Source of the DNA: Omnitrophica bacterium RIFCSPHIGHO2_02_FULL_51_18
Lineage (GTDB): Bacteria > Omnitrophota > Gorgyraeia > 2-02-FULL-51-18
Direction: 5' to 3'
Length of the DNA: 64,000 bases
NCBI GenBank assembly: GCA_001804125.1
Contig: MHFI01000036.1
Span: 23,123 to 87,122 of the forward strand
Each line of letters starts with the position of its first letter. Positions within the stretch are counted from its first letter, which is position 1. Below, piece after piece: positions 11,515 through 35,740 of the stretch. Below the pieces are notes generated by a model. That model saw only the letters and a list, made by a program, of their open reading frames with translations, was not told the origin of the DNA and did no database searches. A program made the translations under genes and the position numbers.

Positions 11515-11589
11515 TGCGTATCTCCTTTGTTATATTATGATATAAAGATATATCATATTATCGTTCGCTTGTCAATACATCCATGGTGT

Positions 11590-16893: not shown

Positions 16894-17316
16894 TTAAAGG
16901 CCGATAGACCGGCATACCACTGTTCTCAGGTCCGTTGTTGCGTCTACCTTGCTTATGGTGATAAAAACATCATCCGCCGCTGTTTGTGCCGCATCCGCCG
17001 TATCCGTGTCAAGATCGATGTAGTAAACCACCGGACTCGGCGGCCAATCCGGGTCCGTAAAATCCCCCCCTGATGACCCGGGGGGCACCTGGTTTCTCCT
17101 TATTCGCTCGAAGGCGTCCACCATCCCCGACTGCGCGCGGTAGTAATTCCTTACACGTGCTCCGACGACCGATTCGGTCACTTTTCTCTGCTGAAAACCG
17201 GTGTCGACGGCGAATAGGGCGCTGAGGGTGAAGAGAAACAGCATCATTATCGCGAAGATCATCGCGACGCCTCGTTGGCTGCGTATCTTAGCTTGCTGAC
17301 GCATGTGCGGTGACAT
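16894..17316 (-). CDS. PilX-like minor pilin / pilus assembly protein.
   Basis: N-terminal hydrophobic helix GVAMIFAIMMLFLFTLSALFAV. Position in the pilin gene string. Confidence 0.5.
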   Translation of the reverse strand: MSPHMRQQAKIRSQRGVAMIFAIMMLFLFTLSALFAVDTGFQQRKVTESVVGARVRNYYRAQSGMVDAFERIRRNQVPPGSSGGDFTDPDWPPSPVVYYIDLDTDTADAAQTAADDVFITISKVDATTDLRTVVCRSIGL

Positions 17317-20532: not shown

Positions 20533-20552
20533 GGGGCAGCCTTTTTGATTGC

Positions 20553-22277
20553 TTAAGCGGTTTCATAGCCGCCTGAAAGCGTGACACGGAATATCTCTTC
20601 CAAAGATGTCTCACCCTCGATAACTTTTTGATAGCCGCTCTCTTCGAGTGTCTTCATGCCCGCCTTACGCGCCTCGGCCCGGATGTGGACCAAAGAGGCC
20701 CTCTGTGTAACGAGTTCCTGAATGCGCTCGTTGATGACCATGATCTCATAGATCGCGGTCCGTCCGCGGTACCCTGTGTGGGAGCAGTGATCGCAACCCT
20801 TCGTTTTATAAAGCGTCTTTTTTTCGACTTGCAGTAATTTTGGCAATTGCGATGCGGAAGGCTCATAAGACTGTTTGCATTTTTGACAGAGACGGCGTAC
20901 AAGCCTTTGTGCCACTATCATGAGAAGTGAGTTCGAGACAAAAAAGGGCTCAATGCCGATATCGATCAGGCGGTTCAGCGTGGAGCAGGCATCATTGGTG
21001 TGCAGTGTGCTGAACACGAGATGCCCCGTCATCGCCGCGCGGATGCAGACTTGCGCTGTTTCGGCGTCCCGGATTTCGCCCACTAAAATTATGTCGGGGT
21101 CCTGCCGCAGGAACGCCCGAAGGCCTGAGGCGAATGTGAGACCGATCTGGGGTTTTACCTGAACCTGATTCACGCCTTCCAATTGGTATTCGACGGGGTC
21201 TTCAACGGTCAGGATATTTTGGCCGGAAGATTTGATGTCGTTTAATGCCGCGTAAAGCGTGGTGGTCTTACCGCTTCCGGTGGGTCCGGTGATGAGGATG
21301 AGGCCGTAGGGTTTTCGAATAACGCCGCGAAACTGTTTCAACTCGTGAGCCTCGAAACCCAGCGTGCCCAGGTTAAGCGAGACAGCCTCGCGGTCTAGGA
21401 TGCGCAGAACCATTTTTTCTCCGTGCACCGTCGGGATGGTCGATACGCGGAAATCCACAGTCCGGTTCTCGATCGTGGCCCGGAAGCTGGCATCCTGAGG
21501 GAGCCTTTTCTCGGCGATGTCCATGCGGGACAGGATCTTAAGGCGTGAAATCAAGGGCAATTGCATGGATTTGTCGGGCGCGGGCACTTCATGCAATACC
21601 CCGTCAATGCGGAAACGCAGGTTCAATCGGCCCGGAAAAGGCTCGATGTGGATATCGCTTGCGCGTTCCTTGATGGCCTGGCGTATCAGAAGGTCTGTCA
21701 GTTTGATCACCGGCGTCTTGCCGGCGCTGGCCACCAGGCTGTCCAGCGAAAGCGGCTCATCGGCGCCTTCTTCCACAACTGCGACCGGAGCGTCATAAGA
21801 GGCTTCGACGGCTGATTGCAGCATCCCCCCTTCCCCGTAAAATCCGTCGATTCCCGTTTGTATGTCGGAAGGAGTGGCAATGATGCGAGTGATATGACAG
21901 CCCGTGATTTTTCTTAAATTATCCAAAACCACGATGTCCGTGGGGTCCGCGATCGCGACCGTGAGAGAATTTTCGTGGCGGTATAAGGGCAGTACCCTGT
22001 GTTTTCGGGCGGTTTCCTCCGGAAGCAATTTATTTAAGTTTTGCTCGGCCGCGGGTTTTAAAAGCCCGCTTTCAAGAGACGCGTAAGGGATGTTCATTTG
22101 CTGGCCGAGCGTGGCGGCCACGTCTTTTTCCGTGATGGCGCCAAGCTCCATCAGGATTTGTCCGATCAGCTGGCCGGGGCTTTCTTTTTGAGCTTCCAGC
22201 GCTTTTTCTATTTGTGACGGCGTGACAACCCCGTTTTTTAATAAGATCTCGCCGAACCTAAGGTACTCTCTGCGCAT
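20553..22277 (-). CDS. pilB: Type IV pilus assembly ATPase PilB (GspE family).
   Basis: N-terminal T2SE_N domain, Walker A GPTGSGKTTT, tetra-Cys zinc motif CQKC...CDHC. Confidence 0.9.
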   Translation of the reverse strand: MRREYLRFGEILLKNGVVTPSQIEKALEAQKESPGQLIGQILMELGAITEKDVAATLGQQMNIPYASLESGLLKPAAEQNLNKLLPEETARKHRVLPLYRHENSLTVAIADPTDIVVLDNLRKITGCHITRIIATPSDIQTGIDGFYGEGGMLQSAVEASYDAPVAVVEEGADEPLSLDSLVASAGKTPVIKLTDLLIRQAIKERASDIHIEPFPGRLNLRFRIDGVLHEVPAPDKSMQLPLISRLKILSRMDIAEKRLPQDASFRATIENRTVDFRVSTIPTVHGEKMVLRILDREAVSLNLGTLGFEAHELKQFRGVIRKPYGLILITGPTGSGKTTTLYAALNDIKSSGQNILTVEDPVEYQLEGVNQVQVKPQIGLTFASGLRAFLRQDPDIILVGEIRDAETAQVCIRAAMTGHLVFSTLHTNDACSTLNRLIDIGIEPFFVSNSLLMIVAQRLVRRLCQKCKQSYEPSASQLPKLLQVEKKTLYKTKGCDHCSHTGYRGRTAIYEIMVINERIQELVTQRASLVHIRAEARKAGMKTLEESGYQKVIEGETSLEEIFRVTLSGGYETA

Positions 22278-22286
22278 CGGGCCCTT

Positions 22287-23954
22287 TTAGCGGTTCCATT
22301 TCACAGTCTTCGGGTCCATTTCATTGAGCGCTTGAGCGATGCGCTTGTTACGCTCGGCCGGCAGGGAAAGTTTCGTGACAGGTTCTTTGGGTCCGGCCAA
22401 AACAGCTTCCAGGCTCCTGTCCATTTCCTCCCCTATAAACTGATCGAGCATGCGCTTGACCGCAAGGTCTTTTGCGTAAACGGTCTGTTTCCGGGACTCA
22501 CCCGGGCGGACGATGTGGGGCGTGATAAATATAAGAAGCTCCCGATCGACGCCGTCACTTTCGTCGTAGCGGAACGCATAGCCCAGGATCGGGATCTTTC
22601 CCAAAAACGGAATCCTTTTCTTGAGCGAAATTTCACTCGTGTCAAGCAGGCCCCCGATCACAAGCGTCTCATGGTTGTTGACCCTGACCAGCGTGCGTAT
22701 GGAGCGGCGTGTGGGGTCCAGAAAAATACTGGAAAAAAACGAGGAAGGCGCCACCGTGGTAACGGTCGGCTCCAAAAATAAGGCGACCGAATCGTCTTCA
22801 TTGATTTGAGGCGTCATTTTGAGGTCGATTCCCACCTGCGTCCTTTCCGCCTGATTGGCACTTGTGACCGCAGTGCCTTCCGCGGTCGTGGTGGTGGCGG
22901 TGTTCGCGATCGCGGCGTCCGTGATGAGTTTAATTGTGGCCGCTTCGTTGTTGAGTGTCAGAACCCGAGGCCTGGAAAGGATCTTCGTGTCATTGTCGGA
23001 GATAATCATATGCAGGGTAGCCGTGAAATTCGCGGCGCTAAATGTGCCGAGCGTCAAGGATTCCTGCGTGGGATCCGGCGCGTCCTCGTCCCCTATGCGG
23101 TTTCGGGTCTGAAACCGTTTGCTCAAAAAATTTTCAGTGAACGGAAAACCGGTGGTCCTCGATCCGGCCGTAAAAGTGGCCAGCGCCCCGTCCGTCCCTC
23201 CCCACTCGACCCCCAGATCGCTGATCAAGTCCTTTTTGACTTCCATCAAGTAAACCTCCAACAACACTTGAGGGGTCGGCACGTCTATTTTTTCAATCAC
23301 TTGCGCGATCTGTCTCAGTTTCTCGGGCGTGTCCGTAACAATGAGGCTATTGGTGTTTAAATCGAGCGTCACTTTTCCGCTTTCCGATAAAAGGCTTGCG
23401 ACGAGCTGGTCCACGCCGCGTTGCGTGCTTGATTTGGAAGAAGGAAACTGCTGAGAACTCGTGCCGGATCCGGTACTGCCTTGTGAGCCGGATGCCAGCT
23501 CAGCCGCCCGTGTCAGGTCGAAGACGGTTTTTTGGCCGCCGATGTCCAGGGGCGAGGTGGAGAGCCGCATGTATTTCAAGAAAAAAACCCGGGTCTGGAG
23601 CTTCTTGGAGGTGGAATTGGCCGGGTACACCACAAAAATATTGCTCCCCTCGGCCTGGTAGTACTCCAGATTGTTCGCCGTCATCAGACTCTCCAACGCG
23701 TCTTTCACGGTCACGTTTTCGAAGTAAACCGTCACGGTTTTCAGTTCCACTTCGCTTGAGGCTACGAAATTGAGACCGGATTGCTGTGAGAATATCTTGA
23801 GCAGCTGCTTCAAGGTGACGTTTTCGAAATCAAGCGAAACAAGCTGTTGGGCGGCTTTTTCCGGCGCTTCTTGCGCGATTGCCGAAAACCCGGCTGAAGC
23901 ATGGAGGGAAAAACACAAAAGCGTCAAAGCCTGAGCAAACCGGCGGCGTCTCAT
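22287..23954 (-). CDS. pilQ: Secretin PilQ.
   Basis: Signal peptide, N domains, C-terminal secretin motif VIGGLLDTSEISLKKRIPFLGKIPILGYAFR. Confidence 0.85.
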   Translation of the reverse strand: MRRRRFAQALTLLCFSLHASAGFSAIAQEAPEKAAQQLVSLDFENVTLKQLLKIFSQQSGLNFVASSEVELKTVTVYFENVTVKDALESLMTANNLEYYQAEGSNIFVVYPANSTSKKLQTRVFFLKYMRLSTSPLDIGGQKTVFDLTRAAELASGSQGSTGSGTSSQQFPSSKSSTQRGVDQLVASLLSESGKVTLDLNTNSLIVTDTPEKLRQIAQVIEKIDVPTPQVLLEVYLMEVKKDLISDLGVEWGGTDGALATFTAGSRTTGFPFTENFLSKRFQTRNRIGDEDAPDPTQESLTLGTFSAANFTATLHMIISDNDTKILSRPRVLTLNNEAATIKLITDAAIANTATTTTAEGTAVTSANQAERTQVGIDLKMTPQINEDDSVALFLEPTVTTVAPSSFFSSIFLDPTRRSIRTLVRVNNHETLVIGGLLDTSEISLKKRIPFLGKIPILGYAFRYDESDGVDRELLIFITPHIVRPGESRKQTVYAKDLAVKRMLDQFIGEEMDRSLEAVLAGPKEPVTKLSLPAERNKRIAQALNEMDPKTVKWNR

Positions 23955-24295
23955 AGGTCCTCCTCTTTTTTCATACGAAGTAAAATAATTTTACCATTTT
24001 CCGTGAGCGTGACGGCATTCTTTTCGATGGCCGTTACTTGGGCGTTTCCCACCCGGCCGCCCACCCCTACCACCGCTTCGCCGATGACTGCCTGCGGTTT
24101 TTCGCTGTTCCAGACAATGCCTTTTAAAAGCGGCTGTTCCATTTGGATGGGCGCTGTTTGCCGGTTTTCTGCGTCGGACGGCGCGGCCGACGCGGGTTTT
24201 TGAAAAGGGTCCCTGAATTGCCGGCCTGTGTATTCCAGAGCGTCGCAGGGAGCCGCAAAAAACAAGCAGATGAGAGAAATAATCAAGCGGCTCAT
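23951..24295 (-). CDS. pilP: PilP-like pilot/alignment lipoprotein.
   Basis: 114 aa, signal peptide, position between pilO and pilQ, 4-bp overlaps. Confidence 0.55.
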   Translation of the reverse strand: MSRLIISLICLFFAAPCDALEYTGRQFRDPFQKPASAAPSDAENRQTAPIQMEQPLLKGIVWNSEKPQAVIGEAVVGVGGRVGNAQVTAIEKNAVTLTENGKIILLRMKKEEDL

Positions 24296-24858
24296 GAAAA
24301 GATTTTCCTAAGCGGCTCCGAAGGGTAATAAACGCTGACCGAAAGCGACGCGTTCAACGCAGGCTGTTCACCGGCGCTTTCGGCAAACCGCAAACTCAGG
24401 CCGGAGAGCCTTATCTGAGGCACGGCCTGCTCCACGCGGCTCATAAAATCCCCCAGCGCATGGTATTGGCCCCTGGCGGTGACGCTCAAGGACACTTTGT
24501 CATAGTCGGGGAAACGGCTCTCCCCCCGCGGCGCGAACGAAGTGATTTCCACTCCTGTCTCTTTGGCGACGCCGTTTAGGGTGTCCACCACCCATGACAC
24601 GTCCCGGGTGTTTGCAAAAAAAGAGCTGTATTTTTTTAGCCCGTTTTCAAGCCTGATGAGCCCTGCCAGTGAGTCCCGCTTCAACTCGATGTTTTGCGAC
24701 TCTTTCTTCAGCGCTTTTATTTTTTGAAGATCGGGCGTTACGACAAAGTGTCCCCCGGCCCACAGGCCTATGGCGCCGAATAAGACGGCGGCCAGGGCCA
24801 GGCGGTGATGCCCGGCCATCTTCAACGCTTGTTTAAGCAGTGCGTCAGCATCAAGCAT
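24292..24858 (-). CDS. pilO: PilO-like inner-membrane alignment protein.
   Basis: Single N-terminal transmembrane helix, coiled coil, position. Confidence 0.6.
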   Translation of the reverse strand: MLDADALLKQALKMAGHHRLALAAVLFGAIGLWAGGHFVVTPDLQKIKALKKESQNIELKRDSLAGLIRLENGLKKYSSFFANTRDVSWVVDTLNGVAKETGVEITSFAPRGESRFPDYDKVSLSVTARGQYHALGDFMSRVEQAVPQIRLSGLSLRFAESAGEQPALNASLSVSVYYPSEPLRKIFS

Positions 24859-26398
24859 GGCGGTTCGTTCCTTCCAGCGAAAATGTCATCGTCGCTTCCG
24901 TTTTTACCCGGGTCTTTTGGGCGGATGAAATTTTGATGTCGTCGAGTCCGTTCATGAGACCGGGGCTTTTCCTGAGTTCCGCAACCCATCGATTCAGATT
25001 TTGAAGGCCATCCTCGGATTCCGCCGCAAACATTTGGCCTTCGAGCATAAGAGAAAAGACGCGCTGATCGTTCGGGGCCTCCGCATCGGAATAGGCCAGC
25101 GCAGTCAGGTAAATATTGTCATGGATCATTCGGGCCACCTCACCCATTTTTTGCGTAACATACACCTTTTGGCCGAAAAGAACAGCCAGTGTTTTTTGCT
25201 TTTGCAGGAGCTCCGTTTGCGCGGTTTGGATGCTCTCGTCGGAAAGCTCCAAGCCGGCTAAAATCGCGGGCTTCGGGAGCGCCGCCGTCTGAGCCTGCAG
25301 TTCTTTTTTTTGCGTGCCGAGGCTGGAAAACAACAGCCCATGAATCACGAGGAACACCGCACCCAACCCCAAGGCTTCGTAGGATAAACAACGTTTAAAC
25401 GCGGCGGTCGAAGCCGGCGTCTGCTCGTTTTTCAGCGCCTCCCCTGCCGCCAAATTGGCTGTTTTGGCCGTGCGCTTCAAGCGGGTTTTGCGCAGTGCCA
25501 GGCCGAGCAAAACGGCCAGCGCCGGACCCAGGTTCGGAAAACCTTTAAGCCGCGTGCCGGGAACCGGGGTTTCGATCGGCAGATCAAAGTCCGCTTTTAT
25601 GTTTTTCAAGAGTTCCGGAAATTCGACTTTAGGGGAGATAAAAAAAACAAATTTTTCGACGGTTTCATTTTTGTAATTTTTAGCAAAATAATCGAGCGAT
25701 AACTGGATCTCCGTGCGCAAAGACGGATAATCCGGTTGTCCCTCGTTGGCCACGGGCAGCACGAAGTCCCTTTGCAACAGAATCATGCCCTCTCTGGCCA
25801 GCAGAATGTCGGCCGCGCCGTCTTCCTGCAGGTCGACGAGCGCCAGCGTGTCGGAGAGCTTGGCGCCGCCGCCCGAAAAACGGTAAGTCCGGATGAGCGG
25901 AAACGCCGCCGGCTCCACGGAAACCGAGAGCGCTCCTTCCCTGTAAAGAAAGCTCAATAAGTGATCGACAATGGCTTTTCTGGCCGCATAAAATACGACA
26001 CTCATTTGTTTTTCTTTTCTGACGGCAGAAATTTCCGCGTTGTGGTAGAGGTCCCGGATATCCGACGGCAGATATTTCTGCGCTTCAAAGTACGCGGATT
26101 GCCGCCGCTCGCTTTTGGGCAGTACCGGCATCTGAAAAAAACGTATCAGCGTATCGGCGCCGGAGAGCGCCACAAAAACTTTTTTGCCCTTGACCGGGAT
26201 TTTTTGGACGGCGGCTTTCAACGCTTCGCCCAGATTCAGCGCGTCGAACTGAGCAAAGCTGTCGGTATTTTCTATTTTTTTTATGCTCACTTCCGCAAAA
26301 TCCGCCAATTGATGACTTCCGCCGATGTTTTGCGTTATCTTCGCAACGCTGATACGGTTGGTCCCCACATAGATGTTGACCGACGGCGTGAATATCAT
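24851..26398 (-). CDS. pilM: Fused PilM (actin-like ATPase fold) and PilN protein.
   Basis: 515 aa. N-terminal 330 aa are PilM-like. An internal transmembrane helix ALGLGAVFLVIHGLLF is followed by a PilN-like coiled coil. Confidence 0.7.
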   Translation of the reverse strand: MIFTPSVNIYVGTNRISVAKITQNIGGSHQLADFAEVSIKKIENTDSFAQFDALNLGEALKAAVQKIPVKGKKVFVALSGADTLIRFFQMPVLPKSERRQSAYFEAQKYLPSDIRDLYHNAEISAVRKEKQMSVVFYAARKAIVDHLLSFLYREGALSVSVEPAAFPLIRTYRFSGGGAKLSDTLALVDLQEDGAADILLAREGMILLQRDFVLPVANEGQPDYPSLRTEIQLSLDYFAKNYKNETVEKFVFFISPKVEFPELLKNIKADFDLPIETPVPGTRLKGFPNLGPALAVLLGLALRKTRLKRTAKTANLAAGEALKNEQTPASTAAFKRCLSYEALGLGAVFLVIHGLLFSSLGTQKKELQAQTAALPKPAILAGLELSDESIQTAQTELLQKQKTLAVLFGQKVYVTQKMGEVARMIHDNIYLTALAYSDAEAPNDQRVFSLMLEGQMFAAESEDGLQNLNRWVAELRKSPGLMNGLDDIKISSAQKTRVKTEATMTFSLEGTNRHA

Positions 26399-26440: not shown

Positions 26441-26809
26441 TCAACGGTCGCTCTCCAGCACAAATTCAGGTTTGACGATGGGCTCTGAAGGAAACGGAAA
26501 CGTGGCTACTTCGTAAACTCCGGCCAGGGTCCTTTTGACAGCCTGGCCGGCGCCGTGAATAGGTCCCCAGGTGATGGCGGCAAGAAAGTTCTGTTCGCTC
26601 GCCACCGATTCCACTCCTTTCGGCAGATCCAACCAGCCGAACGCAACGTTGGACAACCCGCGGCCAAGTTTTTTGCCCGCACCGCTTCCGTAGTCCTCCC
26701 TGGCGATGTCACTCGGGGAGTTTTCAGTCATCGCGCACACGGAACCCGCCGCGACCGTAAAAACGACCAGCGCCGCAAAAAAGCTTTTATGAATAAGATG
26801 CCGGCTCAT
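26441..26809 (-). CDS. Small secreted protein resembling the exosortase-associated TIGR04073 family.
   Basis: Signal peptide. GRGLSNVAFGWLDLPKG motif. Confidence 0.4.
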   Translation of the reverse strand: MSRHLIHKSFFAALVVFTVAAGSVCAMTENSPSDIAREDYGSGAGKKLGRGLSNVAFGWLDLPKGVESVASEQNFLAAITWGPIHGAGQAVKRTLAGVYEVATFPFPSEPIVKPEFVLESDR

Positions 26810-26831: not shown

Positions 26832-27428
26832 TTACTTATCCTGTTCATCTTCCTCGTCATCCCCCTCTTCCTCACCCTCTTCGGTGCCGGGGGGCTCAAG
26901 ACCGGGTTCCGGGCCGGATTCGGGCCCTGCGGCGGCAGGCGCCTGCTCCAGACTTTTAAAAAATTCGTTGGGTGACATCGTTTTCAAGGCGTCTTTGAAT
27001 TTATCGATTTCCTCCTGCGTGATCGCGCTTTCTATCTCTGGGCATTTATTCAGGACTTTTTCGTCGATATAAATCGGACAGCGCGCTCTGACGGCCAGTG
27101 CCAGCGAATCCGAAGGCCTGGCATCCAGCGAAAGGGTCTTGCCCCCGCACTCGATGTAGATGAGCGCATAGTAACTGCTGTCGTGCAGGTCGCTGATGAC
27201 AACCTTGTTTATTTTTGCGCCGAGCGCTTCCAGAACGTTGATCACAAGATCATGCGTCAGGGGCCTGGGAAATTTTTCCCCCTGCATCTCAAGCGCAATC
27301 GCGTTTCCCTCGTTGACGCCGATCCAAATGGGAACCAGACGCGTCTTTTCCAAATCCTCCAGCACCACTACATATTGTGGAAGCGGGAAGAGCGGCGTAA
27401 TAGAAGATATCTTAGCTTCTTTAATCAT
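26832..27428 (-). CDS. Bifunctional nuclease family (BFN/DUF151) protein with an acidic C-terminal tail.
   Basis: PIWIGVNEGNAIALE...RPLTHDL...YYALIYIE...DARPSDSLALAVRARCPIYI. Confidence 0.7.
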   Translation of the reverse strand: MIKEAKISSITPLFPLPQYVVVLEDLEKTRLVPIWIGVNEGNAIALEMQGEKFPRPLTHDLVINVLEALGAKINKVVISDLHDSSYYALIYIECGGKTLSLDARPSDSLALAVRARCPIYIDEKVLNKCPEIESAITQEEIDKFKDALKTMSPNEFFKSLEQAPAAAGPESGPEPGLEPPGTEEGEEEGDDEEDEQDK

Positions 27429-27453
27429 AAATCTCTTTTTTCAATAACCTATT

Positions 27454-28104
27454 CTAACGTTTAAGCGCTAAATTATCAAGGCCGTTTCGTCTAGAAATCC
27501 GTTTGACCCACACGCCTCTTTTTTCGCTCTGAGCTTTTTTTTGAGCGTTTTTTAGCAGCGCATAGTAACGCATGTTGGGAGGATAAGGTTTTACGCGCGC
27601 CAGCCCTTCCCGAACCAAACGCAAATTTACAAATTCTCCGCTTGGCAAATAAACATAAGCCAGCGTGCGGCCGTATTTATCTTTTATTTCTGCGTCCAAT
27701 TCGAGAAACACCGGTTGTCTATCTAAAAGCTGTTTCAAAAAATGGGCAGCCTCCTTTCCGAAGGCGTCAACAGGCCCTTTCCAGGGCTGGTATTCGGGCG
27801 CATCGATCCCGATGAGCCGGATCCTTTCCCCCGTCTCAAGCTCGAAGGTGTCTCCGTCGATGACCCAATGAACGATGCCTGAACGCCTCTGCGTGTTTTC
27901 GGGCGCGGCCTGCGAGTGGACATCCCCAAAAGAAAAACCAAGAATAGAGACAACGAAAAGACAGGAGACGAGCCGGGATGGGGCAGTCCGATCAAAAAGC
28001 CTCAGACTGCTATTCGATTTCGATGACGGAATCAAGACCGCCGTACGGATTGGGTTCCAGGTGGTCGTTGAACGGGTCCGTCGTCCATAGTCCGTCAACG
28101 ACAA
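27454..28104 (-). CDS. Secreted thermonuclease (SNase / micrococcal nuclease family).
   Basis: DGDTFEL..GERIRLIGIDAPE...GRTLAYVYL..GEFVNLRLVREGLA. Confidence 0.75.
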   Translation of the reverse strand: MSLTDYGRRTRSTTTWNPIRTAVLIPSSKSNSSLRLFDRTAPSRLVSCLFVVSILGFSFGDVHSQAAPENTQRRSGIVHWVIDGDTFELETGERIRLIGIDAPEYQPWKGPVDAFGKEAAHFLKQLLDRQPVFLELDAEIKDKYGRTLAYVYLPSGEFVNLRLVREGLARVKPYPPNMRYYALLKNAQKKAQSEKRGVWVKRISRRNGLDNLALKR

Positions 28105-29092
28105 ATTTATACCGGTATTTGCCGGGATCCAGGAACACTCTTTTTTGCCAAACCCCTTCTTCCGTCCTCCACAGAAGCGATTCCTGGGATAGGCTCCAGC
28201 GGTTGAAGTCGCCCACCAGATGCACTTCCCTGGCCTCGTGCGCTTTTAACACAAAATCCCGGATGCGGTTCGACGGAAGCTCGAAGCGGGCACCGTTTGC
28301 ATTTAAGTCGGCGGGAGTGTCGGCCGTGATGCGCTCAAGGAGCTCCCGGACGGCCGCCCGATAGTCCTCGGCGCCTTTGGAAAGGCGATCGTAATGCAAA
28401 ACCGACCGACCCTTGGCCTGGGATTCGCGAATCGCGACGGTTTGACGGATCCCGTTTTTCAAAATGTGCTCTCCAAACGCGTTTGCGATTTCTCCCAGCA
28501 TGTGTTTGGCAAATCTCGTGCGCAAATCGACAAGCGTCGGCAAGGCATATACGTGCGGCGTGTGCTGGAGCTTTACTCGAATCAGCTCAATCATGCTGAG
28601 GAGTTTGCTCACTCCCAGGAGCGAAAACGAACCCAGTTCAATGGGCACAACAACGGTTTGCGAGGCCCTCAGCGCATTGAAGGTCAGAAAACCCAGGCTG
28701 GGCGGGCAGTCAATCACGGCGAATTCATAAGGAAATGAAAGCGTCTGAAGCGCCCGGTAAAGTTTTGAAACGGATTCATCCTTGTGGGTCAGCTCCTGTT
28801 CAATCGTGCTTAACAGAAGATGTGAAGGGGCCAAATCAAGCATCTCCTCTACCGGCAAGATCACGTCCTCCAGAAAATGTTTTCTTTTTTCGTTCTGCTC
28901 AGTCAGCACATTGTAGATGGAGTTCTCGACTTTGTCGCTGCGAATACCCAAACCCGACGTCGCATGGGCCTGAGGATCGAGGTCAATCAGGAGGGTTTTT
29001 TTGCCCAGGTGGGCGAGGCTTGCCGCGATATTGATCGCGGAAGTAGTCTTACCGCACCCTCCCTTTTGATTGGACAACGCAATCACATGCAT
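28010..29092 (-). CDS. ParA/MinD-family ATPase with a C-terminal CBM48 (AMPK-beta-like glycogen-binding) domain.
   Basis: Deviant Walker A NQKGGCGKTT. C-terminus VHLVGDFNRW...GKYRYKFVVDGLWTTDPFN...GGLDSVI matches CBM48. Confidence 0.7.
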   Translation of the reverse strand: MHVIALSNQKGGCGKTTSAINIAASLAHLGKKTLLIDLDPQAHATSGLGIRSDKVENSIYNVLTEQNEKRKHFLEDVILPVEEMLDLAPSHLLLSTIEQELTHKDESVSKLYRALQTLSFPYEFAVIDCPPSLGFLTFNALRASQTVVVPIELGSFSLLGVSKLLSMIELIRVKLQHTPHVYALPTLVDLRTRFAKHMLGEIANAFGEHILKNGIRQTVAIRESQAKGRSVLHYDRLSKGAEDYRAAVRELLERITADTPADLNANGARFELPSNRIRDFVLKAHEAREVHLVGDFNRWSLSQESLLWRTEEGVWQKRVFLDPGKYRYKFVVDGLWTTDPFNDHLEPNPYGGLDSVIEIE

Positions 29093-29093
29093 T

Positions 29094-29942
29094 TTAGATA
29101 GGGACGACCTGCAAGTCTCGGATAAAAACGGTGTCTCCGGGCTTGTTTTCAGTGTCTTTGGAGCCGACGTCAAAACGCAGGCTCGCCACATTTTCCTCGT
29201 CAAACTTACCTTCGGTGTGGTAGATCGGAATTTCCGCCCGTTGCCAGTCGGTCGTCAAAGAGGCCGGAAAAGGATACGTGCGGCCCTTCGGAAAAGCGGA
29301 GAGATTGCCGCTGTCCTTTATGGAAAAGGCGATGTTTTCTCCGCCTCGGCCGCCCTTGGCGTAAAACACGATTTTGGCCCCCTTGAGGTTTAGCGCCGAA
29401 CGGAAGAAAAGATTGGCCCTTGCAAAAGGGGCCACGGAGCTGTTCACCAGCGTGAGGCTCGACTTGTCCTTGGAGCTCTGAAGCTTGGCCGCGCCCTCGA
29501 ATATAAAATCCTGCATGGAGAACGTATCACCGTATTTAATCTGCCACGCACTTTCTGACGACGCGTCCGTGGAAACCGGGTTCTCGTCCTCCGCCGGCGC
29601 GCGCGAAGCGGAATAAAGGCGGGCGTGTTTCTCGTCAATCACTTTAACGTCAACAAAAACACGCTTCGCGGAAAACAAGCTGAAGGCCGCCAAAAGCATC
29701 GCGACTGAACTGATGACCCAGGGCAGGGTCGAAGAGAGCCTGGGTTTTTCAATGACTTTGATGACAAGCGGCTCGTCGTATCTTTTGAGTTTCTCGGGGC
29801 CTGAGAAATAGATGTCGGCCAGTTGCTGCTGCGTCATCTCATAGGGACTTTTCTTGGCGGGAGCCCCCGGATCCCCGGATCCTTCCTTCTTCGAGAATTC
29901 CTTGGCGCTGGCTTTGAGCGACTCGATCAATTTACTCATCAA
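29094..29942 (-). CDS. Membrane-anchored protein with a C-terminal beta-rich (possible carbohydrate-binding) domain. Candidate ParA partner.
   Basis: Single transmembrane helix LPWVISSVAMLLAAFSLF. Directly abuts the ParA-like gene. Confidence 0.35.
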   Translation of the reverse strand: MMSKLIESLKASAKEFSKKEGSGDPGAPAKKSPYEMTQQQLADIYFSGPEKLKRYDEPLVIKVIEKPRLSSTLPWVISSVAMLLAAFSLFSAKRVFVDVKVIDEKHARLYSASRAPAEDENPVSTDASSESAWQIKYGDTFSMQDFIFEGAAKLQSSKDKSSLTLVNSSVAPFARANLFFRSALNLKGAKIVFYAKGGRGGENIAFSIKDSGNLSAFPKGRTYPFPASLTTDWQRAEIPIYHTEGKFDEENVASLRFDVGSKDTENKPGDTVFIRDLQVVPI

Positions 29943-30171
29943 TCAGATGGTTCTCCCTTAAAACGGTCTCTGTTTTCAAGATGGCTTTTTTTAATTCCAA
30001 AAAATGGGACACGTTGATCGCCAGGCCTTTGCCGGTGGGAATTTTCTCCTCCCCTTCCTTGAGGGTCGTGTACACACGTAAGTCCACGAGGTCATAGCCT
30101 TTGAATTCGTTGATTTGGACACGCACTTCTTCAAACTTATTTTTGGGAAAGCTGGCGACCAACTGGTTCAT
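29932..30171 (-). CDS. PC4-like (YdbC-type) single-stranded DNA-binding small protein.
   Basis: EVRVQINEFKGYDLVDLRVY...PTGKGLAINVSHFLELKKAI pattern. Confidence 0.45.
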   Translation of the reverse strand: MNQLVASFPKNKFEEVRVQINEFKGYDLVDLRVYTTLKEGEEKIPTGKGLAINVSHFLELKKAILKTETVLRENHLIDE

Positions 30172-31304
30172 GATGGAACCCTCTCCTCGTTTAGAATTTC
30201 AACAGCTTCTTTAAACTCCGGGGTTTGTGGCTCCTGGCCTTTCCGGAATTCTTCCAGTTTTTTGATCCTCTGGTCCAGTTTTTTAAAGCTCTTGTCGCTC
30301 ACATCGTCGTATTTTTCCTGGGTCTTGCCCAGCAATTCGCCCACGTCTACGAAGCGTTTCTTGAAATTTTCATAGTCATCCAAAAATTGTGTGATGAGCT
30401 TGAGAATTTCATAGGTCGATTTCTTAAAGAAAAAATTATCATAAGCCTGGCGGATGATGGACAGTATTCCGTACAGCGAGTAGGGTGAAGCCAAAAGTAC
30501 TTTTTGGGACAGCGCTTCATCCATAAGCTCGGGCGCCGTCCGGTGAATAAAACCGAAGATCTGCTCGTTCGGGATAAAGAGGATCACGTAGTCCAGTGTT
30601 TGTTCTTCCGGGTTGATGTAGTCTCTTTTTTTTAGTTCCCGGATCCTGTTTTTTACGTCTTTTATAAAATCGCCGAGAGTGCGCTCTTTTTCATTTTTGT
30701 CTTCGGTGTCCATAAACGCCTGGTAGTTGTTCAGAGGGAATTTGACGTCCATATAAACTTTGTGCTGGTCCGGCAGCGGAAAAACAAAATCCGGGCGTGT
30801 GGAAACAGTCTCCTGCGTTTTTTCTTTGAAATAATGAAAGCCTTCGCTGAAGCCCGCGGCGCGTAAAATATCTTCGGCCATCTTTTGGCCCCACTGCCCT
30901 CTGAGCTGGTTGTTGCCGATGACAGCGCCTAGTTTCTGGGTGGTTTCGGAAAGGCTGCGGGTCGCAACCGCGGTTTGCGCAAGCTTTTCGTCGAGACTTG
31001 CAAATTTATAAATCCTGTCCGCTTCAAATTCGCGGATCAGCTTTGTGATGCGCTCGAGCTCTCTTGTCAGATGGTCCACATGATGCTCAACCGCCTGTTT
31101 ATTCTGCTCGAGGAGCGCCTTCGACTTAAACTGCTCATCGATGAAGCGCTCATTGGCAGTCTGCACGAATTTTTCAGACTCTTGCTTCAAACGGGATTCA
31201 ATTTCGAGGAAGTGTTTTTGGATTCGCGATTGAATACAAAGAAGAAAAAAAACAATGACGGCGCCGATCACCACACAGGTCAGCGCGACCAGGATCGGAT
31301 TCAT
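30168..31304 (-). CDS. rmuC: DNA recombination protein RmuC.
   Basis: N-terminal transmembrane helix, long coiled coil, RmuC C-terminal domain. Confidence 0.75.
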   Translation of the reverse strand: MNPILVALTCVVIGAVIVFFLLCIQSRIQKHFLEIESRLKQESEKFVQTANERFIDEQFKSKALLEQNKQAVEHHVDHLTRELERITKLIREFEADRIYKFASLDEKLAQTAVATRSLSETTQKLGAVIGNNQLRGQWGQKMAEDILRAAGFSEGFHYFKEKTQETVSTRPDFVFPLPDQHKVYMDVKFPLNNYQAFMDTEDKNEKERTLGDFIKDVKNRIRELKKRDYINPEEQTLDYVILFIPNEQIFGFIHRTAPELMDEALSQKVLLASPYSLYGILSIIRQAYDNFFFKKSTYEILKLITQFLDDYENFKKRFVDVGELLGKTQEKYDDVSDKSFKKLDQRIKKLEEFRKGQEPQTPEFKEAVEILNEERVPS

Positions 31305-33382: not shown

Positions 33383-35740
33383 TTATGAGCGGCCCAGTTT
33401 GGCCAAAACAAGATCTAAATTCTTCTGAGCGGTTTTGTTATCAGGATTGAGTCTTAAAGCTTCGGAAAAATGGGCCGCAGCTTCCTCCAGTTTACCCAGC
33501 CGAAATAAAATAACGCCTAAGTGGGTATGGATTTCCGGTAAATTGGGATCGAGCCGCAGTGCTTCCGTATAGAAAGCGATCGCTTCCGATACCTTGCCCC
33601 TCTGAAAGGCTTCACTGCCCAGGGAACCGTATGCTTGTGCAAGACCGGACCCGGGTGTGGATGCTTTGTTCTCGGGGCTGCTCAATACCTCCCCCCTGTG
33701 GGATTGAGACGAATCCGATTCGCCCGAATAAAGCACAGGCTGTGTTTGAGCGCTATCTGATTCAGCTGTGTTGTTTTGGCTGACAGTGGGCGCTGGTTCA
33801 GCAACAAGAACAAATCGGGACGCGGCTGTTGTCTGCGTCGATAGAGAAATAAATCCCGTTGGAGCCGTATTGGAAACAGGAGCTTCTGTGACAGGTGTTA
33901 CTGGAGCAGAAGGAGCCGGTTCAGGTGCCGGGGGTTGAGGAGGTGGAGCAAGCGAAGCTTCAGGAAACACGGGAAGCGGTTCCGGTGTTGACAATGGGGG
34001 CGCTAAAGGCTGCGAAACTGCCGGTGGGGGCGCATCCGCATTGGACAGCGCAATTTTAACCGCGTCTTTTCCTATTAGACGCTGGCCGGAAAGGGTCTGG
34101 CCTTTCAATATTCCTTCCGTATCCCCCGCTTGAAAGATAGATTTTGATTCCTTCCAAGGAGTCCAAGATTCTTTGAAATAACACAAAAGATCATTAGACC
34201 CGTTTTTATCCACATCCTTGACCGTGCACCCGGTCCAGCTTGCCTCATTGCCTGTTCGCCCGAAAGTAAGTGAATCCATGTTGATTTGGGTTGCCGCGTT
34301 AAACTTTTCGGTCGAAAGAATGGCTACGGCGACTTCTTTTTCATTCGGCCGAATGAGGTTTTGCGAAGAGCCTGGATCAATATCCATCGTAATCGTTGTC
34401 ACGGGAAGAATCGAATACCTTAACAGCATTAAATCAGCGCCCCTTGAAGCGCTTTTCTTATCCTGACCGCCCGCCGGTTTTCTCACGCCCGTCACATAAA
34501 CATCTGTCCCAACCGCCTCCACCGCCAAAGCATTTTCCAGTTGGTTAGTTTCACCCTCGACGTGCGCGGCAAGAATGGACCCATAATCCTTATCTACTTC
34601 CAGAAGAAAAGCATCTTCATTATGCCTGGGGGTTTCCCCCTTCTTGTACTCTGCAATGCCGGCGACATAGAGCCTGTCTTTCCCGGCGGCGATTCCCAAT
34701 GCCCATCCATTGTCTGCCGGGCCGTCCGCAGCAGGCGATTGAGCGAGCCATTCGGTTTCCCAGACCCGATCGCCATTTTGGTCATATTTCAACAGTAAAA
34801 TGTTTCCCTCGCTGCTTTTTGTGCTTTTTTTGCCCGAGGTAAGATAAAGACAGCCATCGTCGGAAGCGGCCACATCCACCTTAATGCCATGCGTGATGCC
34901 GCTCACAGCCTCTAAAGGCTGAAGCTGGGTGGAAACACTCCCCCTCCATACTTGGTTTCCCGAGGAATCATATTTCCAGAGCGTGGGACTCAGGGGCAGT
35001 GCGTTGAATTCGACGTTCTTTTCAATGGCGCTTGTAAAGCCAACTACGTAAACGCAGCCGTTCAGCATAGCAAGCTCCGTTCCCGCACTTTTATTCATTT
35101 CACCCGGATCGCCCAATATCCTGGACCATAAAAGACCGCCGTTTGAATCATACTTTGCGAGAACAGCCGTAACATTATGGGCGCCGCTTGATGCGTGGCC
35201 CGCAGCGTAAATGACTGTTGAGTTTTTTTCTTCAGCGGCAATAACCGCTCGAAATACCTCTTCCTTTTGTGCAGGGTAAAATTCGCTGTGCACGACCCAA
35301 AGAGGTTTGACAGCCGCGGCCGCGTTTAGAGGAAATTTCGCCAAGACACCTGAGAGTTGTTCTTTATTTTTCTTCCCGCTTGTGCGTACGAGGCTGGAAC
35401 CAACAACGTACAACCCTTCATTGGCGGCAGCCATATCGGTAAATGCGGAAGAAACCTCAATAGAGGCCTTTTGATCGTCGGACCAGACAAAGTTTGATAC
35501 GGGTTGTTCAGCGGGCGGCATGGCGTAAGACACCACAAGCAGCTTCGAATCCGCAGCTGTGCCCGCTATATGCAGGCGGCCGCCGCCGAATTTAACCGCA
35601 TGGCCCGACTGGTTGCCGGAACCGCCGTAAAACAACGCTTTCTCGTACTCAAGCTCCGTATCCGCCTGTGCGTGCCTGCCAAAAATCAGGCCTAGGGCCC
35701 CCACCAAACCTATCATAAGAAGTATCTGCTTTTTCATCAT
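33383..35740 (-). CDS. Large secreted beta-propeller protein with C-terminal TPR repeats.
   Basis: Signal peptide. TPR AIAFYTEALRLDPN...AAAHFSEALRLNPDN. Pro-rich linker. Confidence 0.55.
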   Translation of the reverse strand: MMKKQILLMIGLVGALGLIFGRHAQADTELEYEKALFYGGSGNQSGHAVKFGGGRLHIAGTAADSKLLVVSYAMPPAEQPVSNFVWSDDQKASIEVSSAFTDMAAANEGLYVVGSSLVRTSGKKNKEQLSGVLAKFPLNAAAAVKPLWVVHSEFYPAQKEEVFRAVIAAEEKNSTVIYAAGHASSGAHNVTAVLAKYDSNGGLLWSRILGDPGEMNKSAGTELAMLNGCVYVVGFTSAIEKNVEFNALPLSPTLWKYDSSGNQVWRGSVSTQLQPLEAVSGITHGIKVDVAASDDGCLYLTSGKKSTKSSEGNILLLKYDQNGDRVWETEWLAQSPAADGPADNGWALGIAAGKDRLYVAGIAEYKKGETPRHNEDAFLLEVDKDYGSILAAHVEGETNQLENALAVEAVGTDVYVTGVRKPAGGQDKKSASRGADLMLLRYSILPVTTITMDIDPGSSQNLIRPNEKEVAVAILSTEKFNAATQINMDSLTFGRTGNEASWTGCTVKDVDKNGSNDLLCYFKESWTPWKESKSIFQAGDTEGILKGQTLSGQRLIGKDAVKIALSNADAPPPAVSQPLAPPLSTPEPLPVFPEASLAPPPQPPAPEPAPSAPVTPVTEAPVSNTAPTGFISLSTQTTAASRFVLVAEPAPTVSQNNTAESDSAQTQPVLYSGESDSSQSHRGEVLSSPENKASTPGSGLAQAYGSLGSEAFQRGKVSEAIAFYTEALRLDPNLPEIHTHLGVILFRLGKLEEAAAHFSEALRLNPDNKTAQKNLDLVLAKLGRS

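What the first reader, a model, noticed from the sequence alone, without database searches (positions are those of the whole stretch)
28010..29942. ParA-type ATPase fused to a CBM48 glycogen-binding domain, with an adjacent membrane-anchored partner
The ORF has a deviant Walker A motif (KGGCGKTT) typical of ParA/MinD/McdA positioning ATPases. Its C-terminal 90 aa match the CBM48 / AMPK-beta glycogen-binding module (HLVGDFNRW...KYRYKFVVDGLWTTDPFN). ParA-like ATPases position plasmids, carboxysomes and other cargo via a partner protein. A carbohydrate-binding module fused directly to the ATPase suggests the cargo is a polysaccharide or glycogen granule (or a starch-like storage body), so the ATPase could bind its cargo without an adaptor. 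The next gene encodes a single-pass membrane protein with a beta-rich C-terminal domain and may be the partner or anchor. I am not aware of a described ParA-CBM48 system.
Basis: inference. Interest (0 to 1): 0.7.

Follow-up and report, generated by a model that had tools for sequence, protein, structure and literature searches.

The report
ParA ATPase fused to glycogen-binding module
This Omnitrophota gene really does fuse a chromosome-partition-type ParA ATPase to an intact glycogen-binding module, the same fusion is found in many bacterial phyla and I found no paper on it, so it may be a dedicated system for placing glycogen stores inside cells.

Summary
Gene 28010..29092 (- strand, 360 aa; true start ATG 29092, not the TTG at 29203) encodes a Soj/ParA-type ATPase (AAA_31 E=1.9e-50). 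A disordered linker joins it to an AMPK-beta-type CBM48 (E=2.2e-10), whose sugar-contacting Trp/Lys/Trp residues are invariant.

It is not a frameshift artefact. About 133 of the 150 best 50%-identity clusters carry both domains. In one-genome-per-species contigs the fusion occurs in Omnitrophota, Planctomycetota, Myxococcota, Desulfobacterota, Nitrospirota, Gemmatimonadota and others. All are uncultured and generically named, and no paper was found.

The gene 1 nt upstream (29094..29939) encodes a bitopic membrane protein. It has a conserved N-terminal helix that resembles the ParA-activating peptide of ParB, and a confident periplasmic CBM-fold beta-sandwich. This partner is restricted to Omnitrophota. 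Elsewhere a Walker-A-less FleN/MinD-like protein follows the fusion. In a sister Omnitrophota clade a GH57 alpha-glucan enzyme sits two genes upstream.

Best reading (inferred, about 0.45): ATP-dimerised ParA presents two CBM48 modules that hold glycogen particles on the nucleoid or membrane, and the partner peptide triggers release. This would be a new variant of ParA/MinD positioning systems. Function is untested.

The parts
28010..29092 (-). ParA-CBM48 fusion gene (360 aa plus stop; start ATG 29092)
   Evidence: ORF. The start is fixed by the deposited 360-aa protein P0001 (100% identity) and by the sequence. Pfam AAA_31 plus AMPK1_CBM/CBM_48.
28328..29092 (-). Soj/ParA-type ATPase domain (residues 1-255)
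   Evidence: AAA_31 E=1.9e-50. Best solved relatives are M. xanthus ParA 8RAY (E=4.2e-46), H. pylori Soj and T. thermophilus Soj. Foldseek gives 36-37% identity to Soj/ParA. K10, K15, D37, D39 and D128 are each present in 134/134 fusions.
29042..29065 (-). Deviant Walker A KGGCGKTT (residues 10-17) with signature lysine K10
   Evidence: Motif located at 29065. The Cys-containing form is present in 114/133 fusions.
28265..28327 (-). Variable disordered linker (about residues 256-276)
   Evidence: Unconserved in alignment A1. Residues 259-274 have pLDDT below 50 and the 261-270 block averages 26. In other lineages the linker is 7-364 aa and acidic/Ala/Pro-rich.
28013..28264 (-). CBM48 / AMPK-beta-type glycogen-binding module (residues 277-360)
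   Evidence: AMPK1_CBM E=2.2e-10 and CBM_48 E=3.3e-5. phmmer to AMPK beta1 CBM 4yef/1z0m/1z0n E=5e-7 to 1.5e-6, with aligned W/K/W. pLDDT about 90.
29094..29939 (-). Partner gene 'X' (281 aa): bitopic membrane protein
   Evidence: 166 homologues, all Omnitrophota-type and many on the same contigs as the fusion. Immediately upstream of the fusion in L001-L008, L010 and L013. Its stop lies 1 nt before the ParA ATG.
29910..29939 (-). Conserved N-terminal helix of X (MSKLIESLKA), candidate ParA-activating peptide
   Evidence: M1, S2 and E6 are nearly invariant and residues 4-13 are helical. The pattern fits the Leu-x-Arg/Lys-x-Leu-x-x-Leu-Ile ParA-binding motif of ParB described in PMC12462528. 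The fit is an inference, not tested.
29670..29726 (-). Transmembrane helix of X (residues 72-90)
   Evidence: AlphaFold2 helix 72-90, pLDDT 82-88. There is a conserved hydrophobic stretch in A2. The N-terminal flank is basic, most clearly in the c1 homologue, which suggests an N-in topology.
29097..29522 (-). Extracytoplasmic beta-sandwich of X with a carbohydrate-binding-module fold (residues 140-281)
29932..30171 (-). PC4-like small gene (79 aa) overlapping the start of X; possible first gene of the operon
   Evidence: PF02229 E=3e-10. Same position in L001-L003. Whether it belongs to the system is not established.

Best explanation
Proposal: a two-gene module for spatial handling of cytoplasmic alpha-glucan (glycogen) by a ParA-type ATPase.

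Shown:
- The 360-aa protein is a catalytically complete Soj/ParA-class P-loop ATPase.
- Its C-terminus, where MinD carries its membrane-targeting helix, is extended by a flexible linker and an AMPK-beta-type CBM48 with an intact sugar-binding site.
- The family is widespread.
- The family as a whole keeps the basic residues that canonical ParAs use for non-specific DNA binding.
- It keeps the hydrophobic cleft that binds the activating peptide of a partner.
- In Omnitrophota the translationally coupled upstream gene encodes a membrane protein. It has a conserved N-terminal helix, one TM segment and a periplasmic CBM-fold domain.

Inferred mechanism:
1. ATP binding dimerises the ATPase.
2. The dimer sits on the nucleoid and now displays two CBM48 modules. 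It therefore binds branched glycogen particles with avidity and tethers or distributes them.
3. The N-terminal helix of the membrane partner docks in the dimer cleft and stimulates ATP hydrolysis, giving monomers and release.
4. Holding and release of granules are thereby patterned relative to the inner membrane.

In other phyla a Walker-A-less FleN/MinD-like protein encoded directly downstream would take the partner role.
For: - Domains.
- Closest solved proteins are chromosomal ParA/Soj.
- Catalytic residues K10, K15, D37, D39 and D128 are each 134/134.
- Sugar-site residues align to AMPK beta1 W100/K126/W133/N150. They are invariant in 34 close homologues and near-invariant in 134 fusions from many phyla. 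This argues for selection on glycan binding.
- The linker is disordered and the two domains fold independently.
- The fusion is present in about 133 of the top 150 50%-identity clusters and in at least 10 phylum-level groups.
- DNA-binding positions family-wide: position 191 (equivalent to B. subtilis Soj R189) is Arg in 113/134. Position 196 (H. pylori Soj K199) is Arg/Lys in 106/134. Position 220 (M. xanthus ParA R238) is Arg/Lys in 102/134.
- The partner cleft stays hydrophobic (L133, F135, F138, L170, L175, mapped from PMC12462528 through).
- X is co-conserved with the fusion, sits immediately upstream and is coupled to it.
- X N-terminal motif and topology.
- A GH57 alpha-glucan enzyme lies two genes upstream in most of its 13 sister-clade loci.
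- Most Ace Lake Omnitrophota MAGs are reported to encode glycogen synthesis: PMC8542988.
Against: - No biochemical or localisation data exist.
- No glycogen-metabolism gene is in this window or in clade-A loci. Crude motif scans for GlgA/GlgC/GlgP/GH13 found none near any of the 84 fusions.
- In this protein's own clade two canonical DNA-binding positions are not basic (Q217 and A220, the equivalents of M. xanthus ParA R235 and R238). Nucleoid binding of this particular member is therefore uncertain.
- The CBM is on the ATPase, not on the activator. This does not match the canonical Brownian-ratchet layout, in which the cargo carries the activator.
- The X-ParA contact is inferred only from gene order and a motif resemblance. 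Position 3 of the X peptide is not strictly basic.
- The partner differs between phyla.
Confidence: 0.45

Rival explanations
1. Glycogen is an input, not the cargo. The CBM48 acts as in AMPK beta, reporting or sequestering the ATPase according to glycogen stores. The ParA-type switch then positions or regulates something else: the X-containing envelope complex in Omnitrophota, or a FleN-like partner's target elsewhere.
For: - The CBM is of the non-catalytic AMPK-beta type (AMPK1_CBM scores above CBM_48).
- The likely activator X is itself a membrane protein with a periplasmic glycan-binding-type fold. It therefore looks more like a cargo or sensor than an accessory.
- Partners vary by phylum while the ParA-CBM48 core is constant.
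- There is no glg linkage in this clade.
Against: - No target process is identifiable from the neighbourhoods. The pilus-type cluster nearby is separated by several unrelated genes.
- The GH57 linkage in the sister clade points to alpha-glucan handling itself.
Confidence: 0.25
2. It is simply the lineage's chromosome-segregation ParA (Soj) that has picked up an accessory C-terminal domain. The neighbouring membrane protein is unrelated.
For: - The ATPase domain is most similar to chromosomal ParA/Soj (E=4e-46 to M. xanthus ParA).
- JGI names the homologues 'chromosome partitioning protein'.
- Conservation is very high, 63-84% within the clade.
Against: - No ParB gene lies next to any of the 84 fusion loci, and none was found in this window.
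- It scores below the curated cut-off of every NCBIfam ParA/RepA/SopA/MinD model (for example ParA_partition 109.6 bits against a cut-off of 180).
- It has family-specific motifs (KGGCGKTT; LSTIEQE in place of the LxGAExEL cleft wall).
- M. xanthus ParA R235/R238 equivalents are lost in this clade.
- X or a FleN-like gene is always tightly coupled to it.
Confidence: 0.1
3. The C-terminal domain is only an Ig-like E-set fold used for protein-protein contact, with no carbohydrate ligand.
For: CBM48/E-set folds are reused in non-glycan contexts. Examples are a weak NCBIfam match to a T9SS plug protein (E=5.8e-5) and the kinase-domain contacts made by the AMPK beta CBM (established knowledge).
Against: The residues that stack on and hydrogen-bond the sugar in AMPK beta1 are the most conserved positions of the domain across phyla. 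That pattern is not expected for a purely structural or protein-binding reuse.
Confidence: 0.1
4. Assembly or frameshift artefact joining a ParA gene to the N-terminal fragment of an isoamylase or branching enzyme.
For: None found.
Against: The same continuous architecture is present in hundreds of independent assemblies from different phyla. Nothing resembling a GH13 catalytic domain follows the CBM.
Confidence: 0.01

Closest known systems
Chromosomal ParA/Soj of ParABS systems (M. xanthus ParA 8RAY, H. pylori Soj 6IUB, T. thermophilus Soj 1WCV)
   Same: - Same fold, 36-37% identity.
- Deviant Walker A with the signature lysine, a catalytic Asp and Walker B.
- Hydrophobic partner cleft.
- Family-wide conservation of several non-specific DNA-binding basic residues.
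   Different: - No ParB or parS partner nearby.
- A C-terminal linker plus CBM48 is added.
- Part of the cleft wall is changed (V116 becomes Q99).
- In this clade M. xanthus ParA R235/R238 equivalents are Q/A.
- It scores below all curated ParA family cut-offs.
McdA/McdB carboxysome positioning, and other orphan-ParA cargo systems (PpfA-TlpT, ParC-ParP, PomZ-PomXY)
   Same: An orphan ParA-type ATPase encoded next to a small, fast-evolving partner and dedicated to a non-DNA cytoplasmic cargo. The logic proposed here is the same (established knowledge of these systems). The McdA structures are distant structural matches.
   Different: In those systems the cargo is recognised by the partner, which also activates the ATPase. 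Here the cargo-binding module is fused to the ATPase itself, and the partner is membrane-anchored or a pseudo-ATPase. Classical McdA lacks the signature lysine (established knowledge), whereas this protein has it.
MinD (and FlhG/FleN)
   Same: The C-terminal appendage could confer surface binding only after ATP-driven dimerisation, through avidity of two weak binders. In other phyla the partner gene is FleN/MinD-like.
   Different: The appendage is a glycan-binding domain on a long linker, not an amphipathic membrane helix. The ATPase core is closer to Soj than to MinD.
AMPK beta-subunit CBM, and the plant CBM48 proteins PTST2 and LSF1 that target proteins to starch (PTST2 works with the thylakoid-anchored MFP1)
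   Same: A non-catalytic CBM48 with the same Trp/Lys/Trp site (LSF1 8j5d is also hit). The plant case couples a CBM48 protein to a membrane-anchored factor that sets where granules form (established knowledge; the papers surfaced).
   Different: There is no kinase, coiled-coil or phosphatase context. The CBM is fused to a P-loop switch ATPase, and no such fusion turned up in the literature searches run here.
BcsQ (ParA/MinD-type ATPase of cellulose secretion)
   Same: A ParA/MinD-family ATPase linked to polysaccharide biology and to envelope partners. The Pfam CBP_BcsQ match is weak (E=1.7e-7).
   Different: No bcs genes are nearby. The NCBIfam BcsQ score is 56.6 bits against a cut-off of 157.85. 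BcsQ has no CBM.

Membership tests
ParA/MinD (deviant Walker A, SIMIBI-class) ATPases | Deviant Walker A KGGxxGK[ST] with N-terminal signature lysine | tested here: met
   KGGCGKTT at residues 10-17. K10 and K15 are each 134/134 in the family.
ParA/MinD (deviant Walker A, SIMIBI-class) ATPases | Walker A' / catalytic Asp and Walker B Asp | tested here: met
   D37, D39 (equivalent to M. xanthus ParA D60) and D128 are invariant.
ParA/MinD (deviant Walker A, SIMIBI-class) ATPases | Soj/MinD fold | tested here: met
   AAA_31 E=1.9e-50. phmmer to 8RAY E=4.2e-46. Foldseek probability 1.00 to Soj/ParA, TM-score normalised by target length 0.77-0.80.
ParA/MinD (deviant Walker A, SIMIBI-class) ATPases | ATP-dependent sandwich dimerisation and partner-stimulated hydrolysis | not testable with these tools
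   Needs biochemistry or a multimer prediction. Only the required residues are present.
Chromosomal ParABS ParA (Soj) | Adjacent ParB (CTPase with GERRxRA box) and parS | tested here: not met
   No ParB motif lies next to any of the 84 fusion loci, and none was found by the motif scan of this window. Neighbouring genes are X, a PC4-like gene, SNase and NUDIX.
Chromosomal ParABS ParA (Soj) | Basic residues for non-specific DNA binding (B. subtilis Soj R189; H. pylori Soj K199/K227/K230/K247; M. xanthus ParA R238) | tested here: inconclusive
   This protein has R191 and K196 but Q217 and A220 at the K227/K230 (R235/R238) positions. Family-wide, position 220 is Arg/Lys in 102/134.
Chromosomal ParABS ParA (Soj) | Meets a curated family model | tested here: not met
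   NCBIfam ParA_partition scores 109.6 bits against a cut-off of 180. All other ParA/RepA/SopA/MinD models are also below cut-off.
CBM48 / AMPK-beta glycogen-binding module | Sequence match above the curated threshold | tested here: met
   AMPK1_CBM 41.0 bits (cut-off 26.8) and CBM_48 24.5 bits (cut-off 22.4). AMPK beta1/beta2 CBM structures are hit at E=5e-7 to 1e-5.
CBM48 / AMPK-beta glycogen-binding module | Sugar-contacting residues (AMPK beta1 W100, K126, W133, L146, N150) | tested here: met
   W299, K329 and W336 are identical and invariant. Y350 stands for L146 and D354 for N150 (Asn in 91 and Asp in 30 of 134 family members).
CBM48 / AMPK-beta glycogen-binding module | Actual binding of glycogen or alpha-glucan | not testable with these tools
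   Requires a pull-down or ITC with the purified domain.
MinD | C-terminal amphipathic membrane-targeting helix | tested here: not met
   The C-terminus is the CBM48 beta-sandwich. minD_bact scores 37.8 bits against a cut-off of 212.9.
McdAB carboxysome system | McdB-type partner and carboxysome genes nearby; McdA lacks the signature lysine | tested here: not met
   The signature lysine is present. The neighbours are unrelated to McdB or carboxysomes. McdA is only a distant match (E=1e-7).
Beta-sandwich CBMs (CBM30/CBM4/CBM11-like, galactose-binding-domain-like fold), for partner X | Fold similarity to solved CBMs | tested here: met
Beta-sandwich CBMs (CBM30/CBM4/CBM11-like, galactose-binding-domain-like fold), for partner X | Sequence membership of a CBM family, and a known ligand | tested here: inconclusive
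   Pfam CBM30 E=0.004, 17.5 bits, below the cut-off of 27. Some homologues carry a precomputed PF21582 hit. The ligand is unknown.

The most novel reading that the evidence does not exclude
ParA-CBM48 proteins define a widespread, so far undescribed class of ParA/MinD positioning systems whose cargo is a polysaccharide storage granule. The ATPase recognises glycogen directly through its own CBM48 and distributes or anchors granules using the nucleoid. In Omnitrophota a membrane partner with a periplasmic glycan-binding-type domain couples this cycle to the envelope. This would be the first dedicated partition or positioning machinery for glycogen in any organism.
Probability: 0.3. Interest if true: 0.85.

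Novelty: new variant of a known kind. Interest (0 to 1): 0.7.

Why it matters
ParA/MinD ATPases are the general bacterial solution for placing large objects: chromosomes, plasmids, carboxysomes, chemoreceptor arrays, flagella and the division site. No such system is known for glycogen, the most common bacterial carbon store, and how granules are spaced and inherited is essentially unstudied.

A conserved fusion of the motor to an intact glycogen-binding module is a direct, testable handle on that question. The same fusion in many phyla, with two alternative partner types, offers a natural comparison of how one ParA core is rewired.

It also marks a layout in which the ATPase rather than the activator recognises the cargo. 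That layout bears on models of the diffusion-ratchet mechanism.

For Omnitrophota, the pairing with a membrane protein carrying a periplasmic CBM-fold domain hints at a link between envelope glycan sensing or uptake and internal storage. Members of this phylum are inferred from their genomes to live on imported sugars (PMC8542988).

Tried and rejected
- Frameshift / two-gene artefact: rejected, because the ORF is continuous in hundreds of assemblies.
- TTG-extended 397-aa ORF: rejected in favour of ATG 29092. The extension overlaps gene X, and the deposited protein and all homologues start at MH/MR-VIA.
- ParB partner: a GERRxRA scan of all ORFs in the 84 loci and of the window found only one 100-aa opposite-strand ORF 5.6 kb away in L059.
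- glg genes near the fusion: regex scans for the GlgA KxGGL, GT35 PLP site, GlgC and GH13 motifs found none. The patterns are crude. My GH57 pattern missed known GH57 genes, so these absences are weak evidence.
- Partner X outside Omnitrophota: the X HMM detects nothing beyond L001-L008, L010 and L013. Only the C-terminal domain of the 190-aa c1 family is detectably homologous (hhalign E=2e-5).
- Promoter/terminator scan of 27300-31600: counts are at chance level and not informative.
- Literature: seven full-text searches combining ParA, MinD, CBM48, AMPK1_CBM, glycogen-binding, glycogen granules, cargo and carbohydrate-binding module returned nothing relevant. One malformed query failed.
- Cultured hosts: two cluster look-ups returned no named cultured isolate, only generic names such as 'AAA family ATPase' or 'chromosome partitioning protein'.
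Full report
**1. What is in the sequence**

On the minus strand, the ORF listing reports an ORF at 28010..29203 from a TTG. The first 37 codons overlap the end of the upstream gene. The deposited protein of this organism (Omnitrophica bacterium RIFCSPHIGHO2_02_FULL_51_18) is 360 aa and 100% identical over its full length (P0001). All homologues begin at the Met that precedes the first beta-strand. The DNA reads ...CCTATC TAA a ATG CAT GTG..., so the stop of the upstream gene is at 29096-29094, followed by one base and then the ATG at 29092. The gene is therefore 28010..29092.

Pfam gives:
- AAA_31, residues 1-176, E=1.9e-50.
- CbiA, E=1.3e-18.
- AMPK1_CBM, residues 285-359, E=2.2e-10 (41 bits, cut-off 26.8).
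- CBM_48, residues 284-338, E=3.3e-5 (24.5 bits, cut-off 22.4).

KGGCGKTT is the only deviant Walker A in the window. The only corrections are the start codon and the fact that the 'next gene' lies upstream.

**2. The ATPase**

The closest solved proteins are chromosomal ParA/Soj:
- M. xanthus ParA 8RAY, E=4.2e-46.
- H. pylori Soj, E=1.7e-38.
- T. thermophilus Soj, E=8.5e-38.

A Foldseek search with the AlphaFold2 model agrees, at 36-37% identity. K10, K15, D37, D39 and D128 are each present in 134/134 family members, so this is a competent switch ATPase. It nevertheless scores below the curated cut-off of every named NCBIfam ParA, RepA, SopA, MinD or BcsQ model.

I used the M. xanthus study (PMC12462528) and the residue-level alignment to map functional sites.
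- **ParB-peptide cleft.** V116/L150/L152/L155/L187/L192 in M. xanthus ParA correspond to Q99/L133/F135/F138/L170/L175 here. The cleft is still hydrophobic apart from Q99, which lies in a family-specific invariant LSTIEQE motif.
- **DNA-binding positions kept.** B. subtilis Soj R189 corresponds to R191, and H. pylori Soj K199 corresponds to K196.
- **DNA-binding positions changed in this clade.** M. xanthus ParA R235/R238 (H. pylori Soj K227/K230) correspond to Q217/A220 in this protein and its close relatives.
- **The wider family.** Across the fusion family, position 220 is Arg/Lys in 102/134 and position 222 in 110/134.

The family as a whole therefore looks like a nucleoid-binding ParA. For this particular clade that is uncertain.

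**3. The CBM48**

AlphaFold2 gives two independent domains. Residues 259-274 of the linker have pLDDT below 50 (the 261-270 block averages 26), and residues 277-360 form a beta-sandwich at pLDDT about 90.

phmmer aligns the domain to the AMPK beta1 and beta2 CBM structures (4yef, 1z0m, 1z0n) at E=5e-7 to 1e-5. The correspondence to the AMPK beta1 sugar site is:

| AMPK beta1 | This protein |
|---|---|
| W100 | W299 |
| K126 | K329 |
| W133 | W336 |
| L146 | Y350 |
| N150 | D354 |

All five positions are invariant or nearly invariant (Y350) in 34 homologues of 63-84% identity. Across 134 fusions from many phyla the counts are:
- first Trp, 134/134;
- Lys/Arg position, 131/134;
- second Trp, 130/134;
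- N150 position, Asn in 91 and Asp in 30.

The ligand-contacting residues are thus the best-conserved part of the domain. That argues for a real glycan, most plausibly alpha-glucan, as the ligand.

**4. Not an artefact, and not rare**

More than 120 full-length homologues at 63-84% identity all carry both domains. A profile search of 1.84 billion cluster representatives returned about 133 ParA+CBM48 fusions among the best 150 clusters, with linkers of 7-364 aa (median 52). The long linkers are acidic and Ala/Pro-rich.

A scan of one genome per GTDB species found at least 591 relatives. The best 80 all match over nearly the whole query, 78 of them to residue 351 or beyond. By record title they come from Omnitrophota, Planctomycetota (Phycisphaerae, Pirellulales, Tepidisphaerales, Sedimentisphaerales), Myxococcota, Desulfobacterota/'Deltaproteobacteria', Auribacterota, Rokubacteria, Eisenbacteria, Gemmatimonadales, Krumholzibacteriia, Margulisbacteria and Acidobacteriota. 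Cluster look-ups add Nitrospirota/Leptospirillia, Syntrophales and Glassbacteria.

Nearly all records are labelled MAGs, and MAG taxon labels can be wrong. For example, the 69%-identical 'Planctomycetia' records L005 and L013 are probably Omnitrophota. The names given are only 'AAA family ATPase' or 'chromosome partitioning protein'.

**5. The neighbour, X**

The gene at 29094..29939 encodes 281 aa. Its 166 detectable homologues are all of the Omnitrophota type, and many sit on the same contigs as the fusion. The alignment shows:
- a near-invariant N-terminus, MSKIIEALKA;
- a variable spacer;
- a second motif, ELTQEQLADIYFS;
- a hydrophobic segment;
- a variable spacer;
- a conserved C-terminal domain.

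The basic N-terminal flank, seen most clearly in the shorter c1 homologue, and the absence of a signal peptide favour an N-in/C-out topology. The CBM-fold domain would then be periplasmic.

[quoted passage not shown] This is a resemblance, not a test.

**6. Context across 84 loci (own ORF calling and clustering)**

Three arrangements recur.
- **Clade A (this window plus L001-L008, L013).** The order is RmuC, PC4-like, X, fusion, then NUDIX/M48/SNase/BFN. The whole region is syntenic, so synteny alone is weak evidence. However, X and the fusion are always separated by 1-30 nt (1-12 nt where the genes were called in the source records), and the PC4-like gene overlaps X in the window and L001.
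- **Clade B (21 other Omnitrophota loci, about 41-44% identity).** The order is an Alginate_exp-type porin, GH57 (E=8e-63), c1, the fusion, a 108-aa membrane protein, then a Lys-rich 140-aa protein. c1 is a 190-aa bitopic protein. Its N-terminal motif (IYEHLANIYLD) resembles the second motif of X, and its C-terminal domain is homologous to that of X (hhalign E=2e-5).
- **Other phyla.** 33 loci carry a FleN/MinD-like protein that lacks a Walker A. In nearly all of them it is the very next gene after the fusion, often overlapping it. It matches FleN 5j1j at E=1.4e-14 by phmmer and the ParA domain at E=5.5e-5 over 219 columns by hhalign. The Planctomycetes version is 97.7% probable to be homologous.

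No ParB lies next to any fusion. The constant element is therefore ParA-CBM48, and the partner is lineage-specific. The only neighbourhood link to alpha-glucan metabolism is GH57 in 13 clade-B loci, plus a GH57/stand-alone CBM48 pair in L017. The window itself has no glycogen genes. A published analysis reports that most Ace Lake Omnitrophota MAGs encode glycogen synthesis (PMC8542988).

**7. Mechanism**

Shown: there is an active-site-complete ParA, an intact CBM48 on a flexible tether, a conserved partner cleft, and a coupled membrane partner with a conserved N-terminal helix.

Inferred:
1. ATP-driven dimerisation doubles the CBM48 valency, so the dimer, but not the monomer, holds branched glycogen stably. 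This is the same avidity logic as the membrane helix of MinD.
2. The dimer sits on the nucleoid. This is likely for the family and uncertain for this clade.
3. The partner's N-terminal helix docks in the dimer cleft and triggers hydrolysis and release.
4. Because X is in the inner membrane, release would be patterned from the membrane inward. Alternatively, the complex would tether granules to the membrane.

I put about 0.45 on 'glycogen-binding ParA that tethers or positions glycogen'. The main rival (0.25) is that glycogen is a regulatory input and X, or some other structure, is what is positioned. Three smaller rivals remain: a plain chromosome ParA with an extra domain (0.1), a non-glycan role of the E-set domain (0.1), and an artefact (about 0.01).

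**8. Comparison and novelty**

In mechanism class this is a ParA/MinD positioning ATPase. It is not a member of the ParABS ParA family (no ParB, below the family cut-offs). It is not MinD (no membrane helix), not McdA (it has the signature lysine and no McdB), and not BcsQ.

The cargo-type module sits on the ATPase itself, and the inferred cargo is a polysaccharide. I found neither feature described in any paper in the held library. That library does not cover all journals.

I rate it a new variant of a known kind, with interest 0.7. A specialist in ParA systems would find a widespread ParA-CBM48 family surprising, and it makes the open question of how glycogen granules are organised directly testable.

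Noticed in passing
window 29932..30171 (-): A 79-aa PC4-like (PF02229, E=3e-10) gene overlaps the start of partner gene X by 11 nt. It occupies the same position in relatives L001-L003. It may be a DNA-binding member of the same operon.
   Followed up: partly
L009-L033 (for example L019:5818-7377 and L011:4268-5668): In a sister Omnitrophota clade the fusion sits in a block made of an Alginate_exp-type outer-membrane porin, a GH57 glycoside hydrolase, a 190-aa X-like bitopic protein, ParA-CBM48, a 108-aa membrane protein and a 140-aa protein with a Lys-rich histone-H1-like tail.
   Followed up: partly
L017, L039, L041-L049, L062, L071, L079 and others (33 loci): Outside Omnitrophota the gene just after the fusion encodes a FleN/MinD-like protein with no Walker A motif (a pseudo-ATPase). 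It matches no Pfam family and is below cut-off for every NCBIfam model, and it appears to be an uncharacterised partner family.
   Followed up: partly
proteins P0241 (1812 aa), P0305 (1409 aa), P0379 (1436 aa): Giant proteins made of 7-18 tandem CBM48-like repeats scored among the best hits of the profile search.
   Followed up: no
L017:6337-6642 (-) and L043:6264-6551 (+): Stand-alone CBM48 ORFs of about 100 aa. One lies next to a GH57 gene close to the fusion, and the other lies upstream of the fusion.
   Followed up: no
window 19318..26398 (-): A type IV pilus / T2SS-like cluster (T2SSF, T2SSE with an MshEN domain, secretin, PilO-like, PilM-like). It is syntenic with the ParA-CBM48 region in relatives but separated from it by nuclease and other genes.
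   Followed up: partly
window 26832..28104 (-): Two nuclease genes lie directly downstream of the fusion: a staphylococcal-nuclease homologue and a BFN_dom bifunctional nuclease. RmuC lies upstream (30168..31304). This gives a DNA-metabolism flavour to the surrounding block.
   Followed up: no
window 10001..12381: A low-GC stretch (0.44 against about 0.52-0.55 elsewhere) contains an IS200-like Y1 transposase at 11710..12381. The large ORFs nearby have no Pfam match (13721..16030, 16107..16871, 17288..17902). This may be an insertion.
   Followed up: no
window 26441..26809 (-): A small secreted protein of the TIGR04073 exosortase-system-associated family (E=3.7e-24).
   Followed up: no
window 33383..35740 (-) and 35757..37475 (-): A 785-aa secreted protein with a Pro-rich region and C-terminal TPR repeats lies next to a response-regulator GGDEF-EAL protein.
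   Followed up: no
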